A program made the translations under genes and the position numbers. Positions 10,934-17,505 of a stretch of 64,000 nt of DNA are shown piece by piece; the stretch's first letter is position 1; each line of letters starts with the position of its first letter. Under the pieces are notes generated by a model, which had not been told where the DNA came from, ran no database searches, and saw nothing but the letters and a program-made list of their open reading frames with translations. The stretch is from positions 153 through 64,152 of the forward strand of contig JBGPLG010000013.1 of NCBI GenBank assembly GCA_041486305.1, written 5' to 3'. The DNA is from Gemmatimonadota bacterium. GTDB lineage: Bacteria > Gemmatimonadota > Gemmatimonadetes > Gemmatimonadales > GWC2-71-9.

Positions 10934-11917
10934 TCAGCTTTTCGGGCCGAGGCTGTTGGGTGTCTTCGAGAGAATGGCGGCCAAGCGCAACGGGTCGATG
11001 TTGCCGCCCGAAACGATGCAGCAGATGGTGCCGCCGCCCGCCTTGCCGGACAGCGCCGTCGCGACGGAGACGGCGCCGGCGCCCTCGGCGACGACATGCA
11101 TCCGCTGCACCAGGGTCCGGATGGCGTCGGCCGTCTCCTCCAGCGAGACCACGGTCACGCCCTCGATCAGGCCCTTCACCATGGGCCACATCTCGGGCAG
11201 CAGGCCTGACGCACCGATTCCATCCACGAAGCTGGGCTGATAGGAGATCTGCTGGGGCGATCCCGCCTTCATCGAGGCGCTGAGCGGAGCCGCGGTCTCC
11301 ACTTCGCACGCGATCACCCGCGCACCCGGGCCGAGGTACTTGAGCGCGCTCGCGATCCCCGAGACCAGCCCTCCGCCGCCGAACGGCACCAGCACTTTCT
11401 CGACGTTGGGAAGGTCCTCGATGATCTCGGCGCCGATCGTCGCGTTGCCCGCCATGACCGCAAGGTCGGACACCGGATGAATGAAGCGCCCTTCCATCTT
11501 TTCATAGCTCCGCTCCAGCAGGACCCTCCACCACCGGACGAACGGCACCGGCACGATCCGCGCTCCCAGCCGGTCGAGGGCCGCGAGCTTCGCCTCCGGC
11601 GCGTGGTCCGGCACGATGGCGGTGAACGGGATGTTCCGGCTCCTGGCGCACCAGGCCAGCCCGAGCGCCATGTTCCCCGCGCTCGCGGTGTAGATCCCCT
11701 TGGCGAGCTCGGCCGGAGCGATCATGCCGATCGCGTTCCGGGCCCCCCGGATCTTGAATGACCCGACCGGCTGCAGTGTTTCCAGCTTGAGCCAGATATC
11801 GCGAGGCCCCTCGTAGGGAAGCCGCACCAGCGGGGTGCGAATCGCCGAATCCTTGATTCGCTCCCGGGCCTGCCGGATCGCCTCCAGGGGAATTCGATCT
11901 GGCATCGTGACCGTCAT
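10934..11917 (-). CDS. PLP-dependent threonine/serine dehydratase family protein
   Basis: KLETLQPVGSFKIRGA (PLP Lys), ASAGN, PFGGGGL, AEGAGA, SGGN. Confidence 0.9.
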   Translation of the reverse strand: MTVTMPDRIPLEAIRQARERIKDSAIRTPLVRLPYEGPRDIWLKLETLQPVGSFKIRGARNAIGMIAPAELAKGIYTASAGNMALGLAWCARSRNIPFTAIVPDHAPEAKLAALDRLGARIVPVPFVRWWRVLLERSYEKMEGRFIHPVSDLAVMAGNATIGAEIIEDLPNVEKVLVPFGGGGLVSGIASALKYLGPGARVIACEVETAAPLSASMKAGSPQQISYQPSFVDGIGASGLLPEMWPMVKGLIEGVTVVSLEETADAIRTLVQRMHVVAEGAGAVSVATALSGKAGGGTICCIVSGGNIDPLRLAAILSKTPNSLGPKS

Positions 11918-14478
11918 CGCCGGCGTCCTCCTCGGTGCGGGTTGGTGTGTCGGTGGCGGTGCGGATGCGCCTTGGCGGCGGAATGCTTGAGCAGGGCGGA
12001 CAGCTCCTCCAGCGAATCGGCGCGCAATAGCGGCTCCCCTCCCCGGACCACACCGAAGCGGAGTGGCCGGTCGAGCGACGGCAGGTCATGCCGAGCGAGA
12101 CGCCTCGCCTGTCCCTCCCGAAGTCGGAGCCGAACCACGCCGGAACCTCCCGCTACTTCGTACTCCAGCGGCACCGCATCGCCATGCAGCCGTACCATTG
12201 ACGGCAGGGCGTCGAGGCGGCGCCGATCCGATTCCGGAACCAGTGCTTCCGGGTCCAGGGAGAGCGGCGTGTCCAGAAACTCTTTCCAGGAGCGCACCCC
12301 GCCGAGCTGCGTGTTGAGCACCGCCCGGATTGCCGATTCGGACCCGGAATCCAATGTGCCACCGGAGCGGCGCCACCATTCCAGCAGCATGGTGGCCCCG
12401 CGGCGGATCCGGTTCTGGTCGGAATGGCCGGTGTCGCCGGCGAGCAGGGCGCCGATCAGCGCCGCGCGGGCGGGTTCGAGCAGGTCGTCGGGGATCCGTC
12501 CGCTCAGCGGCTCGATGCCGGTTTCCAGCTGGAAGCCGAAGTACTCCAGCGTTCGCGCCACGGCGAGCTGCTGGTGCTTCCGGGTGCCGGTAACGGTGAT
12601 CTCCGGGGGTCCCAGCGTCGCGTTGCGTCGCACCAGCTCATAGGAGATCGTGGTGCCCTCGACCGAGGCTCGTGGCACGCCGAACCGATCGGCAAAATAT
12701 CGAACGTTGCCGGCCACCGCCCCCCAGGTACCCGCCACGGAGGTCTTGGCCACCCGAACCTCCTGGCCGTCGGCGGTGTGCTCGTCGATGACCAGGTCGA
12801 ACGGCATCACCTTCGCCACCAGCTCGATGAAGGCCTGGCGCAGATCGCGATTGGCGTAAGGCAGGGTCCGCGGCAATGGCAGCTCGAGCGAGCGATACAC
12901 CGAAGCGGTGCCCATGGCGGCGTCTTCGATCGCCTTGACCAGCACCCCGCGCCGCTGGCCCCAGTCGGCCAGCGCCTCCTCGAAGACGTGACGCGGCAGC
13001 CCATAGGCTTCTCCCAGGGACCCGTGCTGGTTCACCGCCTCGGCGTACAGATTGTAGGCCGTCAGGTGATCGCTCCCCTGCACCAGGGCGCCGTGGAGCT
13101 CGCGCTCCTCCCGCGTCATCCGGTGCAGGGAGTCGATGTTGGAGCACACCGCCGCGATCGGGATCACGCGCTCGTCCGCCTTCACCAGCAGCTCGGCCCA
13201 GGGCCGGTCCACCGGCATCGCCTCCACTTCGCGGCCGTAGTCGGTGAGGCGGCCGCGGGCCACCAGCCCCCGAGTCGTCAGCAGCTCCAGCGCGCGGCGG
13301 TAGGCCACCTTGTCGAGCGGTACCGGCAGGTCGAGATCCCGCGCGTCCACCCCGAGCGCGGCGCAGGTCAGCGCTACGCGTTCCGCGTCTCCCGCCAGCT
13401 GGAATTCCGGCGGCGTCGGGCGAAGGGATTCGAAGTCGAGCTGCCGGTCCGAGAGGATGGTAACTTCGCCGTTAGGCACCCGCCCATGCACCCGTCCCGC
13501 CATCTGCAGGATCTCGTTGGCGCCGAGGTAGAGGCGGTGGAGGACGTTCCGACCGCGATCCACCCGGTTCCCGTATCGCGCGTCGTAGATCACCACCGTG
13601 TCGAGACCGGGAATGTTGAGCGCCGACTGCCCTGCCGCGGTCATCGCGAGGAGGAACGGCTTCGGTACCGAACCTTCGAGAAACGGGCGGATCACCCGGA
13701 TCGGTTCCCCGCCGTGATAGAACGCCGCCGAAAGCTTGGGCCACTGATCACCCAGCTCGGCGGCCAGCCGCTCGACCTCGGCGCGGGTGGGAACGAACAC
13801 CGCAACGCCGCGACGCTCCTTGATCAGGTGCCGGACGAAACGATCGTCGAGGAATTCTTCCACGTCCTTGGCCACGACGGTCACCTGGGCCCGGAGCTTC
13901 GGGTCGAAGGCGCTGGTTTCCAGGATCTCGGCGCTGTTGAGGTACTTCGCGTAAAAGGTCGGGTCGACCGTGGCGGAGAGCCAGATGAACCGGCAGCCGG
14001 TGCGCTTTCCCAAAGCCAGGCAGAGCTCCAGCTCGGCGGAGGTCTGGTGGATCTCGTCCACCACCAGGGTGTCCCGATCGCTGATGAGATCGTCCTGGAA
14101 CCAGCGCCGCGCGATGCCGGTCGTGACGATGACGACGTTCCAGGACGGGGTCTCCGGTGTGGCTTCCCGCTCACGATTGACGACCCCGTAGCGAAGGGTC
14201 TCCTGGAGGATGGCCTGCGCAATGGGACGGATGCCGAGTGTCTTTCCCGTCCCGGTGCCAGCCACGATGCCGAACGCTTTGCCGCCCGCCGCCCACTCCC
14301 ATACCAAGGGGCCATGCTTCCGCTGGAGCAGGGTCTCGATCTCGGTGCCCAGCGCCAACTCGATGGTTTCGCAGGCCGCCCGGGTGGGCGCGATGACGAT
14401 GATCCGGCCGCGGGGATGTTTGGCTTTCCGGTAGGCGACCGGATCGAGGGGGAGATGGTGGTTGCGGGCCGGGTGCAT
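11914..14478 (-). CDS. DExH-box SF2 helicase, HrpA/HrpB-like, with an unusual motif order
   Basis: AGTGTGKT, DEIH, SAT, VFVPTR, TAAGQSALNIPG, QMAGRVHGR; HrpB-like C-terminus. Confidence 0.8.
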   Translation of the reverse strand: MHPARNHHLPLDPVAYRKAKHPRGRIIVIAPTRAACETIELALGTEIETLLQRKHGPLVWEWAAGGKAFGIVAGTGTGKTLGIRPIAQAILQETLRYGVVNREREATPETPSWNVVIVTTGIARRWFQDDLISDRDTLVVDEIHQTSAELELCLALGKRTGCRFIWLSATVDPTFYAKYLNSAEILETSAFDPKLRAQVTVVAKDVEEFLDDRFVRHLIKERRGVAVFVPTRAEVERLAAELGDQWPKLSAAFYHGGEPIRVIRPFLEGSVPKPFLLAMTAAGQSALNIPGLDTVVIYDARYGNRVDRGRNVLHRLYLGANEILQMAGRVHGRVPNGEVTILSDRQLDFESLRPTPPEFQLAGDAERVALTCAALGVDARDLDLPVPLDKVAYRRALELLTTRGLVARGRLTDYGREVEAMPVDRPWAELLVKADERVIPIAAVCSNIDSLHRMTREERELHGALVQGSDHLTAYNLYAEAVNQHGSLGEAYGLPRHVFEEALADWGQRRGVLVKAIEDAAMGTASVYRSLELPLPRTLPYANRDLRQAFIELVAKVMPFDLVIDEHTADGQEVRVAKTSVAGTWGAVAGNVRYFADRFGVPRASVEGTTISYELVRRNATLGPPEITVTGTRKHQQLAVARTLEYFGFQLETGIEPLSGRIPDDLLEPARAALIGALLAGDTGHSDQNRIRRGATMLLEWWRRSGGTLDSGSESAIRAVLNTQLGGVRSWKEFLDTPLSLDPEALVPESDRRRLDALPSMVRLHGDAVPLEYEVAGGSGVVRLRLREGQARRLARHDLPSLDRPLRFGVVRGGEPLLRADSLEELSALLKHSAAKAHPHRHRHTNPHRGGRRR

Positions 14479-14627: not shown

Positions 14628-15236
14628 TTACGGATTGCCGTGGTGACCTCGGCCATTGTCGTGCCCGTTGTCCCGACGGTTGTCCCTGCCATCCCGGTTG
14701 TCGCGCCGGTCGTCTCGACCGTCCCGGCGATTGTCGCGCCGGTCGTCCCGTCGGTCTTCACGCCGATTGTTGTTGAAGCGGCGGTCATCGCGCGGGTCAT
14801 ACCGGGGCCGCTCGTACCGCTGGTCATACCGGGGCACCTGATAGCGCGGCTGACTGTACCCATACCCGTACCCCGGGAAATCGTAGCCGTCGTCCTCGAG
14901 CCGGTAGTAGCGGCCGTCGCGCTCGAAGAGCCTGATTTCCAGGAGGCCAGGGCGGAACCGGTCGAAGTAGTAGCTGTCGTCGTCCCGATCCCAGAACACC
15001 ACGACCAGCCGGCTGCCCCGCTGGAACGAGCGCCACCAGTCATCCCGGCGGTAGTCGCGCGACCGCACCCACTCCACCCCCCGAATCGGGCGAGGGCGTC
15101 CACCTATGGAGATCCGGCCGGCGATCGGGCCCCCGCCGATGATGATATCCGCGCTGACCCGTTGAGCCTGCGCGGGCATGGCGGTAAAGAGCGGAAGCAG
15201 CAGTCCGAGGCCGAGTACTGAATTTCGAGCGTTCAC
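14628..15236 (-). CDS. Secreted hypothetical protein with an Arg/Asp-rich low-complexity repeat tail
   Basis: GTG 15236 preceded by GGAGG; signal peptide ending AQA; DRRDDRRDNRRD repeats. Confidence 0.7.
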   Translation of the reverse strand: MNARNSVLGLGLLLPLFTAMPAQAQRVSADIIIGGGPIAGRISIGGRPRPIRGVEWVRSRDYRRDDWWRSFQRGSRLVVVFWDRDDDSYYFDRFRPGLLEIRLFERDGRYYRLEDDGYDFPGYGYGYSQPRYQVPRYDQRYERPRYDPRDDRRFNNNRREDRRDDRRDNRRDGRDDRRDNRDGRDNRRDNGHDNGRGHHGNP

Positions 15237-15282
15237 GATGTCCTCCACGAAGAATGCAGCGCCTTCCTGCCCTGACCCCCGA

Positions 15283-15298
15283 AGCGAGCGCCGTGCCA
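15283..15298 (-). promoter_or_regulatory. Sigma-54 (-24/-12) promoter candidate
   Basis: Minus strand TGGCACGGCGCTCGCT versus consensus TGGCACG-N4-TTGCW, one mismatch; about 47 bp upstream of GTG 15236. Confidence 0.65.
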
Positions 15299-15446
15299 AT
15301 TCGTATCTTCTTATGCCGCAACGCAAACGCGTCGGGGCCCGCCCGGGAGTGTCCTCAAGCCGGGACACCCGGAGGGTCGGTTGAGACACCGGCCGACAGC
15401 CCGGCTATATTCGGCCCCTTGGCTTTCACCCGTGCGGAAGGCTTCG

Positions 15447-15947
15447 GTGTCACAGGGATTCAAGGTGTCGGTCTCCAAGGAGTACCTTGGCTTCTCGTCG
15501 GCGCACTTCATCACGCTGGCGGGTCACCAGTGCGAGTCCCTCCACGGCCACAATTACAGAGTCGGGCTGACGGTAGAGGGGGGAGTCGACCCGGAGTGCG
15601 CCTTCGTGGTGGACTTTGCGGTGCTCAAGCGGATTGTCCGGCCCTACGTCCATGCGGTGGATCACCGGGTGCTGTTACCCACCCTGAATCCCAAACTGGT
15701 CCTGACCACCGAAGGCGACCGGATGCTGGTGGAGTACCAGGGAACCCCTCGCTTTGTATTTCCGCTGTCCAACTGCGCCCTGATTCCGATCACCAATACG
15801 ACGGCGGAAATGATCGCGGAATACCTGGCGCGTCGACTGCGGGACGACCTCCGAGAGGAGGGCCTCCCGCACCTGGATGCGATCGAGGTGGAGGTCGAGG
15901 AAAGCGTGGGTCAGGCGGGGTACTTCAGACTGGGGATGAGCGAGTAG
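15447..15947 (+). CDS. queD: 6-carboxy-5,6,7,8-tetrahydropterin synthase / PTPS family
   Basis: FSSAHF, CESLHGHNY, VDFAVLK, VDHRVLLP, TTAEMIA, VEVEES; start taken at GTG 15447. Confidence 0.85.
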   Translation: MSQGFKVSVSKEYLGFSSAHFITLAGHQCESLHGHNYRVGLTVEGGVDPECAFVVDFAVLKRIVRPYVHAVDHRVLLPTLNPKLVLTTEGDRMLVEYQGTPRFVFPLSNCALIPITNTTAEMIAEYLARRLRDDLREEGLPHLDAIEVEVEESVGQAGYFRLGMSE

Positions 15948-15973
15948 CCCTCCTTCCTGCTCGCTGTTCGTTG

Positions 15974-16321
15974 CTAGCTGACCAACGGCTTCTTGGGTCC
16001 CACCAGGCTAGAATCCCGTCCGGGCTGCCAGGTGACCTGCTTCTCGATCAGTGCCGCTACCTCGAAGTCCTTGGTCGTAATTCCACCCGCGCTGTGGGTG
16101 GAGAGCGCGACGCCTACGCAAGGCCAGGTGACGGTCAGGTCCGCGTGGTGATCCGCCGCCTCGCAGATGAACCCGATGGCGTTCGCCACCAGCATAGACC
16201 CGCGCCAGCCGTCAGTCTTGTAGGTGCGCCGAATCGCCCCGTTTTCGAAGGCCCAGGCCGGTAGCGCCTTGAGCCGCGCCTGGATCTCGGATGGAGCAAG
16301 CGCCTGTTCCTTTTCCGGCAT
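15974..16321 (-). CDS. phhB: Pterin-4-alpha-carbinolamine dehydratase
   Basis: EAADHHADL, LSTHSAGGITTKDFEVA. Confidence 0.88.
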   Translation of the reverse strand: MPEKEQALAPSEIQARLKALPAWAFENGAIRRTYKTDGWRGSMLVANAIGFICEAADHHADLTVTWPCVGVALSTHSAGGITTKDFEVAALIEKQVTWQPGRDSSLVGPKKPLVS

Positions 16322-16330
16322 GACCCCTCC

Positions 16331-16370
16331 TAGCCTCTTAGCGTCTGAGCGTCTGAGCGTCTGAGCGTCT
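16331..16370 (+). repeat. Five-unit 8-mer tandem array TAGCCTCT/TAGCGTCT/(GAGCGTCT)x3 between the pfkA stop and the phhB RBS
   Basis: Read directly; CTCCTAGCCTCTTA (16327-40) is identical to 9797-9810. Confidence 0.92.
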
Positions 16371-17505
16371 AGTCTCCCAGGCTGATCCCCAGATTGCGAG
16401 CGGTCATGATGATTCCGCTGTCCAGCGGGACCAGCTTCGGCTGCCCGATGATCTGGATCAGGGGCACTCGGCTCACGGTGGGCGGCGTGTACACGACGCA
16501 GGAGCCGAAATCACCCGCGGCGATGGCGCGCACCGCGCCCGAACCGAATCGCAGCGCCAGGAGTCGATCGAAGGTGGTCGGAGAGCCGCCCCGCTGCAGG
16601 TGCCCGAGCACCAGGCACCGGGTTTCCTTACCGGTCCGTTCCCCAACGGCCTTCGCGACTTCCTCCCCGATGCCCCCCAGCCGCTCGGCTCGACCGCCGC
16701 CGGCCCGCTGGCGCAACACGATCTGTCCTCCGGCCGGCCGCGCGCCTTCGGCCGCCACGACGATCGAGAATCGGCGACCCCGCTGCTCCCGTTCGATGAT
16801 CTTCTGGCACACCTTGTCGATGTGGAAGGGGATTTCGGGTATCAGGATGACATCCGCGCTGCCCGACAATCCGCTGTGCAGCGCGATCCAGCCGGCATAG
16901 CGTCCCATCAGCTCCACCACGAACACCCGATCGTGGCTCTCGGCCGTGGTGTGAATCTTGTCCAGCGCGTCGGTCGCGGTGCTTACGGCCGTGTCGAATC
17001 CGAACGTTGATTCGGTGCCCGCCACGTCGTTGTCGATGGTCTTGGGGACGCCGACCACCGGGATGCCCTTCTCGAACAACCGATGGGCGATCCCGAGGCT
17101 GCCGTCGCCGCCGATGGCCACCAGCGCATTGAAGCCGTGAGCCCGGAACGCCGCGATGAGCTCGTCGGACCGGTCTTCCTCGGCGATGATCCCGTCCGGC
17201 TGGAGCCGGGGCCACTCAAAGGGATTGCCGTAGTTGGTGGTACCCAGGATGGTGCCGCCCAGATGGGTAATGCCCCGCACTTCGCGCGGCCCCAGAGGTA
17301 TCAGCCCCAGGTCGGGCTCGCCCGGAATCATCGGGATGGGACGATTGTCTTTGCGGTAGCGATCCTCGGGGGGGAACAGACCGTCATACCCTCGGCTGAT
17401 GCCGTAGGTCTCCCAGCCCCGTTGATGCGCCGACAGCACTACCGCGCGAATGACGGCATTGAGTCCCGGCGCGTCGCCGCCGCCGGTCGAAATTGCGATC
17501 TTCAT
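16369..17505 (-). CDS. pfkA: 6-phosphofructokinase (PfkA family, group III-like)
   Basis: GGGDAPGLNAVIR, GGTILGT, GGDGS, PKTIDND, ELMGR, GHLQRGG. Confidence 0.93.
   Translation of the reverse strand: MKIAISTGGGDAPGLNAVIRAVVLSAHQRGWETYGISRGYDGLFPPEDRYRKDNRPIPMIPGEPDLGLIPLGPREVRGITHLGGTILGTTNYGNPFEWPRLQPDGIIAEEDRSDELIAAFRAHGFNALVAIGGDGSLGIAHRLFEKGIPVVGVPKTIDNDVAGTESTFGFDTAVSTATDALDKIHTTAESHDRVFVVELMGRYAGWIALHSGLSGSADVILIPEIPFHIDKVCQKIIEREQRGRRFSIVVAAEGARPAGGQIVLRQRAGGGRAERLGGIGEEVAKAVGERTGKETRCLVLGHLQRGGSPTTFDRLLALRFGSGAVRAIAAGDFGSCVVYTPPTVSRVPLIQIIGQPKLVPLDSGIIMTARNLGISLGD

What the first reader, a model, noticed from the sequence alone, without database searches (positions are those of the whole stretch)
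11914..14478. HrpB-like DExH helicase with motif Ia placed before motif I (permuted RecA1 domain)
Seen: the order is GRIIVIAPTRAACETIELAL (motif Ia-like), then FGIVAGTGTGKT (motif I), then directly ETLRYGVVNRE...VVIVTTGIARR (Ib-like), DEIH and SAT. No Ia segment lies between I and Ib. Established: SF2 helicases run I, Ia, Ib, II; in HrpB the KIILLEPRRLAAR element follows GxGKS/T. Inference: two consecutive beta-alpha units have been swapped, giving a rewired but possibly functional RecA fold. Motif VI is also atypical (QMAGRVHGR). I know of no description of this arrangement.
Basis: partly seen in the sequence, partly recalled or inferred. Interest (0 to 1): 0.7.

Follow-up and report, generated by a model that had tools for sequence, protein, structure and literature searches.

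The report
HrpB-like helicase with rewired RecA1 domain
This gene encodes a conserved RNA-helicase-type motor in which one strand-helix building block of the ATPase core (the "motif Ia" RNA clamp) sits at the protein's N-terminus rather than after the ATP-binding loop, an arrangement I found in no paper and no curated family model.

Summary
ORF 11914..14478 (-) encodes an 854-aa DEAH/RHA NTPase. Its order is strand-PTR-helix (res 24-44), helix, strand+GTGTGKT (68-80), helix, a 5-residue linker, Ib (YGVVNRE), Ic (VTTG), DEIH, SAT.

- **Missing unit:** GKT-to-DExH spacing is 55-64 aa in 321/321 family members and 89-90 aa in 32 canonical HrpB, so about one strand-helix unit is absent there.
- **Not an artefact:** the layout is conserved in thousands of homologues from Gemmatimonadota, Patescibacteria and Abditibacterium. 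It is single-copy in 139 of 201 Gemmatimonadota genomes.
- **N-terminal unit resembles Ia:** moved in silico to the canonical place, it raises the Pfam DEAD score by 7-19 bits over shuffled inserts in 6 of 6 members. It also restores contiguous alignments to HrpA/HrpB.
- **Overall fold:** the AF2 model (pLDDT 91) is HrpB-like over its whole length (Foldseek 6EUD, E 2e-27).

Two things remain open. The tool returns no model coordinates, so I could not read the strand's neighbours in the sheet. The unit's origin is also unresolved: it may be the relocated Ia unit or a copy of the protein's own motif IV unit, which it significantly resembles.

Verdict: a real, conserved, uncurated variant of a known helicase kind. 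Interest is moderate to high.

The parts
11914..14478 (-). Whole gene: 854-aa HrpB-like DEAH/RHA NTPase with a permuted RecA1 domain (stop codon 11914-11916)
14347..14409 (-). N-terminal strand (26-30), P31-T-R33, helix (33-44): a motif-Ia-like unit placed before motif I
   Evidence: AF2 secondary structure with pLDDT about 90; P31 and R33 conserved; de-permutation tests; hhalign to HrpB Ia strand
14284..14334 (-). Helix alpha0 (res 49-65, invariant T49), equivalent to the N-terminal 'LPI' helix of canonical HrpB that precedes motif I
   Evidence: hhalign EIETLL with LPIxxvL; secondary structure
14239..14277 (-). Strand beta1 plus motif I / Walker A, FGIVAGTGTGKT (res 68-80)
14200..14238 (-). 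P-loop helix alpha1 (res 81-93), followed by only a 5-residue linker; the canonical Ia unit is absent here
14167..14193 (-). Motif Ib / hook-turn strand RYGVVNRER (res 96-104)
   Evidence: aligned to HrpA/HrpB VGYxxR
14104..14139 (-). Motif Ic strand NVVIVTTGIARR (res 114-125; T119 and G121 invariant)
14038..14070 (-). Strand beta5 plus motif II, TLVVDEIHQTS (res 137-147)
13963..13992 (-). Strand beta6 plus motif III, RFIWLSATVD (res 163-172)
13444..13887 (-). RecA2 domain (res 198-345; Pfam Helicase_C)
13750..13821 (-). RecA2 motif IV unit KERRGVAVFVPTRAEVERLAAELG (res 220-243), the internal look-alike of the N-terminal unit
   Evidence: hhalign score 26.5, 0 of 150 shuffles reach it; slot-swap tests
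13480..13506 (-). Motif VI QMAGRVHGR (res 325-333): Q, GR and GR invariant, one extra residue between the arginine pairs
12499..13386 (-). Winged-helix, helical-bundle (ratchet/HA2-like, GSDHLTAYN) and OB-like region (res 365-660)
   Evidence: phmmer to Prp16/Prp43/HrpA through about res 480; Foldseek; hhalign
11980..12498 (-). HrpB-type C-terminal domain (res 661-833)
   Evidence: hhalign to the canonical HrpB C-terminus up to T777 of 852; pLDDT above 90
11917..11979 (-). Disordered Arg/His-rich tail (res 834-854)
   Evidence: pLDDT below 50; variable R/G/H-rich tails in homologues

Best explanation
The gene encodes a genuine, probably active RNA-dependent NTPase/helicase of the DEAH/RHA class. 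It is closest to HrpB but belongs to a separate family found in Gemmatimonadales, Patescibacteria and Abditibacterium.

Its RecA1 domain is non-circularly permuted. The strand / P-x-R / helix unit that normally follows the P-loop helix (beta2, motif Ia, alpha2) is missing there. An equivalent unit (res 24-44) is encoded at the N-terminus, ahead of the helix and strand that carry motif I.

Inferred: the N-terminal strand inserts into the RecA1 sheet in the slot next to the DEIH (Walker B) strand. P31 and R33 would then contact the RNA backbone as P130 and R132 of HrpA motif Ia do. The 3D active site and RNA path would be canonical, and only the chain connectivity would differ.

Origin is left open. 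One route is a tandem duplication of the first ~95 codons followed by loss of the outer copies. The other is capture of a copy of the RecA2 motif IV unit followed by deletion of the original Ia unit.
For: **Shown**
- The order of elements and a 5-residue linker where Ia should be.
- GKT-to-DExH spacing of 55-64 aa in 321/321 members against 89-90 aa in 32 canonical HrpB.
- An hhalign 25-column gap in the query right after GKT.
- Pfam DEAD matches only the second half of its profile (from about position 85-95 of 167) in the seven members scanned.
- Transplanting the N unit into the canonical slot gives DEAD 45-47 bits with profile coverage 11-161, against 27-31 bits for shuffled, reversed or deleted inserts. 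Five divergent members gain 6.7-19.1 bits.
- HrpB TIGR01970 rises from 60.6 to 68.9 bits, with the alignment now starting at motif I.
- phmmer against PDB improves: Prp16 40.7 to 49.8, HrpA 38.2 to 45.6, and HrpB appears at 34.3 bits. The Ia alignment becomes contiguous.
- The only hhalign hit of the unit profile on the canonical HrpB RecA1 profile is RviVIAPTR against rrIvmLEPRR (E 0.09).
- P31 and R33 are conserved as P-x-R, as are the catalytic residues K79, D141, E142, H144, SAT, Q325, R329 and R333.
- In AF2 the N-terminal strand and helix are confident (pLDDT about 90), and the whole model reaches pLDDT 91 and pTM 0.81.
- RecA1 has a full set of strands (seven or eight by DSSP) with the N strand counted, and Foldseek's top hit is HrpB 6EUD at E 2e-27.
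- The N strand is the most uniformly hydrophobic strand (0.97), as expected for a buried central strand.

**Weakly shown**
- In mean-field DCA the N-strand/DEIH-strand block is the highest of 28 strand pairs.
- The top couplings of the unit are all to RecA1: E37-R104, I29-C153, V28-P173 and V28-V140.

**Established knowledge**
- Helicase-type P-loop sheets have order 2-3-4-1-5, with beta2 next to the Walker B strand (PMC7758060).
- HrpA motif Ia residues P130 and R132 bind the RNA backbone (PMC8325345).
Against: - No coordinates were available, so the sheet position of strand 26-30 was never observed directly.
- The DCA had low power (Meff 70-86). Control strand pairs expected to be adjacent (beta1-beta6, beta5-beta6) did not stand out.
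- Whole-domain hhalign scored the de-permuted profile no better than the deletion (84.6 against 86.3), although above shuffles at 72.7 +/- 5.9.
- A narrow HrpB HMM gave only small gains, with a median z near 2.6.
- No biochemical data exist for any member.
- The alpha1-to-beta3 linker is short for the span it must cross, though AF2 models it confidently.
Confidence: 0.75

Rival explanations
1. Same final architecture, different history. The N-terminal unit is not the relocated Ia unit. It is a paralogous copy of the protein's own RecA2 beta2-alpha2 (motif IV) unit, which is structurally equivalent to Ia. The copy was fused to the N-terminus and took over the Ia slot, and the original Ia unit was then deleted.
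For: - The N-unit profile's best match in the rest of the family profile is the motif IV unit (res 220-243). The score is 26.5 at E 2e-4, and 0 of 150 column shuffles reach it (mean 11.8, sd 2.4).
- This is stronger than its match to the HrpB Ia unit (score about 12).
- The canonical HrpB Ia unit shows no such match to its own motif IV unit (10.8, not significant).
- The two units are interchangeable on Pfam profiles. The IV unit in the Ia slot gives 42.5 bits, and the N unit in the IV slot gives 32.9 bits, equal to the native 32.9.
Against: - The similarity is concentrated in 'hhVhhPTRA'. It falls to about 22% identity in Patescibacteria, so it may reflect parallel selection on two RNA-backbone clamps.
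- The N unit fits the Ia slot about 5 bits better than the IV unit does.
- This history requires a non-tandem, in-frame transposition of about 75 bp to the 5' end of the gene.
Confidence: 0.3
2. The Ia unit was simply lost. The N-terminal strand-helix is a family-specific accessory extension, either an edge strand or a separate mini-module, and its PTR is coincidental. RecA1 then works without a motif Ia.
For: No direct 3D evidence places the strand in the Ia slot. Whole-domain hhalign does not prefer the de-permuted order over the deletion.
Against: - Beta2 is an interior strand next to the Walker B strand (PMC7758060), so its loss without replacement would leave a gap in the sheet.
- AF2 nevertheless models a compact, confident RecA1 with the N strand assigned as E.
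- P31 and R33 are conserved across three phyla.
- Profile gains of 7-19 bits appear in 6 of 6 members.
- The strand is fully hydrophobic.
- The top couplings of the unit go to the DEIH strand and the Ib loop.
Confidence: 0.12
3. The order is canonical after all. 'VVNREREAT' after the P-loop helix is a degenerate motif Ia, as an earlier first-stage note on a relative suggested, and what is missing is Ib.
For: There is a loose resemblance of TREhEAT to TQPRRVAA.
Against: - HMMER and hhalign place YGVVNRE on VGYxxR (Ib hook-turn) and NVVIVTTG on the TxG of Ic, with canonical spacing and no helix between them.
- The native order never yields a DEAD-profile alignment from motif I onward.
Confidence: 0.04
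4. Assembly, frameshift or gene-calling artefact unique to this contig.
For: None found.
Against: - Full-length homologues keep the same order: more than 4,600 proteins, 80 genome loci, and 139 of 201 Gemmatimonadota genomes as a single copy.
- Patescibacteria and Abditibacterium homologues have the same order.
Confidence: 0.01

Closest known systems
HrpB (E. coli DExH-box NTPase; PDB 6EUD, 6HEG; TIGR01970)
   Same: - It is the best Foldseek hit over the whole length (E 2e-27).
- Profile-profile probability is 99.1 over RecA1, RecA2, WH, helical bundle, OB and the HrpB-type C-terminal domain.
- The length is similar, and it has the same motifs I, Ib, Ic, II, III, V and VI.
   Different: - Sequence identity is only about 16-24%.
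- The TIGR01970 score is 58.5 bits against a cut-off of 546.
- The Ia unit lies N-terminal of motif I.
- The motifs read DEIHQTS rather than DEFHERS, and motif IV reads FVPTR rather than FLPG.
- Motif VI is one residue longer.
- It co-occurs with a canonical HrpB in some genomes (G019, G021, G023), so it is a paralogous family and not the HrpB orthologue.
HrpA and eukaryotic DEAH-box helicases (Prp43, Prp16, Prp22, DHX37)
   Same: - Same domain architecture and tunnel-forming fold.
[quoted passage not shown]
- One long Patescibacteria member scanned (P0292) carries the HrpA-type DUF3418.
   Different: - These helicases have the collinear order I-Ia-Ib-Ic.
- The hook-turn reads RE here, not RF.
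- Pfam HA2 and OB_NTP_bind are not detectable by sequence.
Circularly permuted GTPases (RsgA/YjeQ, YlqF, YqeH) - analogy from my own knowledge
   Same: They are a conserved P-loop NTPase family whose motif order in sequence differs from the canonical order, while the 3D fold is kept.
   Different: Those are circular permutations (G4-G5-G1-G2-G3) of a GTPase domain. Here a single internal strand-helix unit is relocated (non-circular) in an SF2 helicase RecA1 domain.
HPr kinase N-terminal strand insertion (as described in PMC7758060)
   Same: It sets a precedent for an N-terminal extension supplying an interior strand of a P-loop sheet.
   Different: There the strand is antiparallel and lies between beta1 and the Walker B strand. 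It is not a nucleic-acid-binding motif unit.
Z5898-like (MrfA/DUF1998) bacterial helicases
   Same: This is the third bacterial group listed alongside HrpA-like and HrpB-like (PMC8325345).
   Different: The group is defined by a Zn-binding DUF1998 domain (PMC7797055). The Pfam scan of this protein, run up to E=1, listed no DUF1998 or similar domain.

Membership tests
SF2 DEAH/RHA helicases | Walker A (GxGKT), DExH, SAT and the motif VI arginines are present | tested here: met
   GTGTGKT, DEIH, SAT and Q325/R329/R333 are invariant in 85 sequences. Motif VI carries a one-residue insertion.
SF2 DEAH/RHA helicases | Collinear motif order I - Ia - Ib - Ic - II | tested here: not met
   The order is Ia-like, I, Ib, Ic, II. 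No unit lies between I and Ib.
SF2 DEAH/RHA helicases | C-terminal winged-helix, helical-bundle (HA2/ratchet) and OB domains that form the RNA tunnel | tested here: met
   Foldseek aligns 660-880 columns to HrpB, HrpA, Prp43 and DHX37. phmmer runs through WH into HA2. Pfam HA2 and OB models do not hit.
HrpB (TIGR01970 equivalog) | Score above the curated cut-off of 546 bits | tested here: not met
   The score is 58.5 bits. True HrpB of the same phylum score 900-1070 bits.
HrpB (TIGR01970 equivalog) | HrpB-type C-terminal extension | tested here: met
   hhalign covers the HrpB C-terminus to T777 of 852, including the '...VP.GS.I.vDY...lAVRLQE' block. Pfam HrpB_C is not detected by sequence.
HrpB (TIGR01970 equivalog) | Orthology, meaning one such gene that replaces HrpB | tested here: not met
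   It co-occurs with a canonical HrpB in G019, G021 and G023. Overall 139 of 201 genomes carry the permuted gene and 52 of 201 carry HrpB.
RNA-dependent NTPase/helicase activity | RNA-stimulated NTP hydrolysis and unwinding | not testable with these tools
   Only conservation of the catalytic and RNA-contact residues was shown.
Permuted RecA1 fold | The N-terminal strand occupies the beta2 (Ia) slot beside the Walker B strand | tested here: inconclusive
   No coordinates were returned. The support is indirect: DSSP assigns E, pLDDT is about 90, the strand is hydrophobic, and weak DCA gives V28-V140 and I29-C153.
Anti-phage defence helicases (PADLOC) | Match to a defence-system model | tested here: not met
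   There is no PADLOC hit for this protein. Only weak generic Cas3-helicase hits appear for two relatives. The neighbours are housekeeping genes.

The most novel reading that the evidence does not exclude
This family would be a fourth, mechanistically distinct bacterial DEAH/RHA subfamily. Its motif Ia RNA clamp is no longer wired between the P-loop helix and the hook-turn but hangs from the N-terminus. This would decouple the clamp from ATP-site movements, or make it a detachable gate for RNA loading or regulation. The unit may even have been recruited from the other RecA domain (motif IV). That would be a natural case of modular strand-helix replacement inside a RecA core.
Probability: 0.2. 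Interest if true: 0.8.

Novelty: new variant of a known kind. Interest (0 to 1): 0.6.

Why it matters
SF1 and SF2 helicases are defined by a fixed order of motifs, and their mechanisms are explained through that connectivity. In DEAH proteins the P-loop helix, the Ia strand and the Ib hook-turn form a relay for RNA translocation.

A family that is conserved, apparently under purifying selection, and nearly universal in one bacterial order keeps every catalytic and RNA-contact residue while wiring the Ia unit differently. That makes it a natural experiment on three points:
- how far the RecA fold tolerates changes in strand order;
- whether covalent coupling of Ia to the P-loop helix matters for translocation;
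- how permutations arise, by duplication and deletion or by capture of a paralogous unit.

There is also a practical consequence. The permutation explains why Pfam matches only the second half of its DEAD profile and why NCBIfam has no model that reaches its cut-off. Sources therefore label these proteins 'helicase-related', 'HrpA' or 'hypothetical'. A family-specific model would fix annotation in Gemmatimonadota and Patescibacteria. The Abditibacterium utsteinense record, named for a described species, gives an experimental entry point.

Tried and rejected
- **Tracing strand connectivity.** Structure prediction returns only pLDDT and secondary structure, and no model file appears in /data.
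- **Covariation (mean-field DCA).** I used 391-398 sequences with Meff 70-86. Power was too low for proof, and known-adjacent control strand pairs were not enriched.
- **HMM of 32 Gemmatimonadota HrpB.** It is too narrow, and gains on de-permutation were small.
- **Whole-domain hhalign.** The de-permuted order scored about the same as the deletion and above shuffles, so the test did not decide.
- **Phage or mobile-element origin of the distant relatives.** There was no hit in the phage collection or in IMG/VR. They turned out to be Patescibacteria chromosomal genes.
- **Functional link to the downstream PLP enzyme (ATGA overlap).** The synteny is kept in only 4 of 80 loci, so I rejected it as an operon clue.
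- **Defence-system reading.** Rejected.
- **Z5898-like identity.** Rejected, because that group is the DUF1998/MrfA type.
- **Intermediates with two Ia units.** None were found among 321 members.
- **Abditibacterium gene context.** The look-up found no record.
- **Literature.** Five searches found no description of a permuted SF2 RecA1. Absence from this open-access library is not proof of absence.


Full report
**What is there.** The ORF at 11914..14478 (minus strand) encodes 854 aa. Curated libraries see only fragments of a helicase. Pfam DEAD matches residues 113-172, which is only the second half of its profile, and Helicase_C matches 217-331. NCBIfam HrpB reaches 58.5 bits against a cut-off of 546, and HrpA reaches 24 bits. 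PDB sequence hits are Prp16, HrpA and Prp43 at E 1e-9 to 1e-4, and the alignments start only at residue 80 or 117. The neighbouring genes are housekeeping: a PLP enzyme, an M28 peptidase, PTPS, pterin dehydratase and PFK.

**Checking the observation.**
- Two AF2 models give the same secondary structure (12-sequence alignment, pLDDT 68.6; 85-sequence alignment, pLDDT 91.0 and pTM 0.81).
- That structure is E26-30, H33-43, H50-65, E69-73 (GTGTGKT follows), H83-91, E97-100, E115-119, H120-128, E137-140 (DEIH), H148-160, E163-168 (SAT).
- Only five residues link the P-loop helix to the strand that HMMER and hhalign align to the Ib hook-turn (YGVVNRE with VGYxxR). NVVIVTTG aligns to the TxG of Ic.
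- GKT-to-DExH spacing is 55-64 aa in 321 of 321 family members and 89-90 aa in 32 canonical HrpB from the same phylum. About 27 residues, one strand-helix unit, are missing at the canonical place.

**Not an artefact.**
- More than 4,600 homologues were found. The closest are full-length 'helicase-related proteins' of Gemmatimonadales.
- The best 80 of 569 genome loci all show the gene.
- It is single-copy in 139 of 201 sampled Gemmatimonadota genomes. That covers essentially all Gemmatimonadales families and one further family.
- Relatives at 30-45% identity, 600-1450 aa long, start directly with RVVVIAPTRSTC and are Patescibacteria proteins from Uhrbacteria, Ryanbacteria and Falkowbacteria.
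- A record labelled Abditibacterium utsteinense carries it too.
- Across 85 sequences T49, G76, G78, K79, T119, G121, D141, E142, H144, SAT, Q325, G328, R329, G332 and R333 are invariant. R25, A30, P31, R33 and C36 are at least 90% conserved.

**Is the N-terminal unit a motif Ia unit?** The tool returns no model coordinates, so I tested this by sequence.
- I moved res 22-44 between res 93 and 94. Pfam DEAD rose from 30.8 to 45.4 bits, and the alignment then spanned profile positions 11-161. Shuffled, reversed or deleted inserts gave 27-31 bits.
- The same test in five divergent members gained 14.4, 9.3, 19.1, 13.9 and 6.7 bits over a shuffled insert.
- TIGR01970 rose from about 60.6 to 68.9 bits, with the alignment now starting at motif I.
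- phmmer against PDB improved: Prp16 40.7 to 49.8, HrpA 38.2 to 45.6, and HrpB newly detected at 34.3 bits. It gave a contiguous alignment of 'lgirpiaqailqe-prgriiviaptraacetiela' with HrpA '[34 protein letters not shown]'.
- The unit's profile has a single hit on a canonical HrpB RecA1 profile, and it falls exactly on the Ia strand: RviVIAPTR with rrIvmLEPRR, E 0.09.
- P31-x-R33 matches the P130/R132 RNA-backbone contacts of HrpA motif Ia (PMC8325345).
- Weaker tests did not decide. A narrow HrpB HMM gave a median z of about 2.6. Whole-domain hhalign scored the de-permuted order like the deletion, both above shuffles.

**Where does the strand sit?** This part is inferred.
- Helicase-type P-loop sheets have the order 2-3-4-1-5, with beta2 beside the Walker B strand (PMC7758060). 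The canonical beta2 is absent here.
- The N-terminal strand is assigned E by DSSP with pLDDT of about 90.
- It is the most uniformly hydrophobic strand of the domain, at 0.97.
- Mean-field DCA (Meff 70-86) ranked the N-strand/DEIH-strand block highest of 28 strand pairs, at about the 97th percentile of random blocks.
- The strongest couplings of the unit are all to RecA1: E37-R104 (Ib loop), I29-C153, V28-P173 and V28-V140.
- Control pairs expected to be adjacent were not enriched. I therefore count this only as a hint.

**What kind of protein.**
- A family profile aligns to canonical HrpB from Q40 to Q790 (probability 99.1, E 6e-19). The alignment includes the HrpB-specific C-terminal domain and has a 25-column gap right after GKT.
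- With the good model, Foldseek's best hit is E. coli HrpB 6EUD (E 2e-27), followed by HrpA, DHX37 and Prp43.
- It is not the HrpB orthologue. True HrpB (900-1070 bits) occurs in 52 of 201 Gemmatimonadota genomes, and several genomes carry both genes. The window's own genome has only the permuted one.
- It is not the third described bacterial group, Z5898-like, which is DUF1998/MrfA-type (PMC8325345, PMC7797055).
- It has no PADLOC match, and it is not phage-borne.

**An unexpected twist on origin.**
- The N-terminal unit's best match inside its own family profile is the RecA2 motif IV unit (res 220-243, RGVAVFVPTRAEVERLAAELG). The score is 26.5 at E 2e-4, and none of 150 column shuffles reaches it.
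- The canonical HrpB Ia unit shows no such match to its own motif IV unit.
- On Pfam profiles the two units are interchangeable. The IV unit in the Ia slot gives 42.5 bits against 47.3 for the N unit. The N unit in the IV slot gives 32.9 bits, equal to native.
- Motif IV's strand-helix is the RecA2 counterpart of Ia. This is my own knowledge of the Ia/IV, Ib/IVa and Ic/V correspondence.
- Two histories therefore remain. (a) A tandem duplication of the first ~95 codons, followed by loss of the first alpha0-beta1-alpha1 and the second beta2-alpha2. (b) Capture of a copy of the motif IV unit at the N-terminus, followed by deletion of the original Ia unit.
- The similarity is strongest in the 'hhVhhPTRA' core. 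It is lower in Patescibacteria (22%) than in Gemmatimonadota (33%), so parallel selection on two RNA clamps is also possible.
- No intermediate forms were found.

**Mechanism proposed.** I propose an RNA-dependent NTPase or 3'-to-5' translocase of the DEAH/RHA type.
- ATP would bind between motifs I, II and VI.
- RNA would be threaded under the WH, bundle and OB domains across RecA1 and RecA2.
- On RecA1 it would be held by P31/R33 (N-terminal Ia-like unit), R102 (hook-turn) and T119 (Ic). The motif IV and V equivalents would hold it on RecA2.
- The Arg/His-rich disordered tail (res 834-854) probably adds non-specific RNA affinity.
- Shown: motif conservation, fold class and the permuted order.
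- Inferred: the sheet position of the N strand, catalytic activity and the RNA contacts.

**Novelty.** Five literature searches found no description of a permuted SF2 RecA1. No Pfam or NCBIfam model covers the family. The nearest precedents are circularly permuted GTPases and the N-terminal interior strand of HPr kinase. I rate this a new variant of a known kind.

Noticed in passing
window 13750-13821 (-) versus 14347-14409 (-): The N-terminal strand-PTR-helix unit and the RecA2 motif IV unit of the same protein are significantly alike (hhalign 26.5; 0 of 150 shuffles reach it). They are interchangeable on Pfam profiles. Canonical HrpB shows no such internal similarity.
   Followed up: partly
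window 11914-11917: The helicase stop overlaps the start of a PLP-dependent (threonine/serine dehydratase-like) gene at 10934-11917 (-) as ATGA. The pairing is kept in only 4 of 80 related loci, so it is probably not a functional operon.
   Followed up: yes
window 14628-15389 (-): A 253-aa ORF upstream of the helicase has a signal-peptide-like stretch and a long Arg/Asp-rich repetitive tail (RRDDRRDNRRDGRDDRRDNRDGRDNRRDN...). It has no Pfam family. A 62%-identical copy lies at the same place in locus L001.
   Followed up: no
window 11917-11979 (-): The helicase ends in a disordered His/Arg-rich tail (HPHRHRHTNPHRGGRRR). Homologues carry variable R/G/H/D-rich tails, as earlier first-stage notes on relatives also remarked.
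   Followed up: partly
window 13480-13506 (-): Motif VI has a family-wide one-residue insertion between the two arginine fingers (GRVxGR rather than GRAGR), with a QM start that recalls Ski2-like helicases.
   Followed up: partly
window 14332-14334 (-), residue T49: T49, at the start of the helix that precedes motif I, is invariant in 85 sequences from three phyla. It may act like a Q-motif or 'LPI' element in nucleotide recognition, or as a helix cap.
   Followed up: no
Patescibacteria relatives P0130, P0142, P0145, P0292 and others: Many Patescibacteria members carry 300-800-aa C-terminal extensions rich in coiled-coil-like sequence and CPVC zinc-ribbon-like motifs. One (P0292) hits HrpA's DUF3418.
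   Followed up: no
window 15381-17505: A 6-pyruvoyl-tetrahydropterin synthase gene, a pterin-4a-carbinolamine dehydratase gene and a phosphofructokinase gene lie upstream. This trio recurs near the helicase in about a quarter of related loci (PTPS in 20 of 80).
   Followed up: partly
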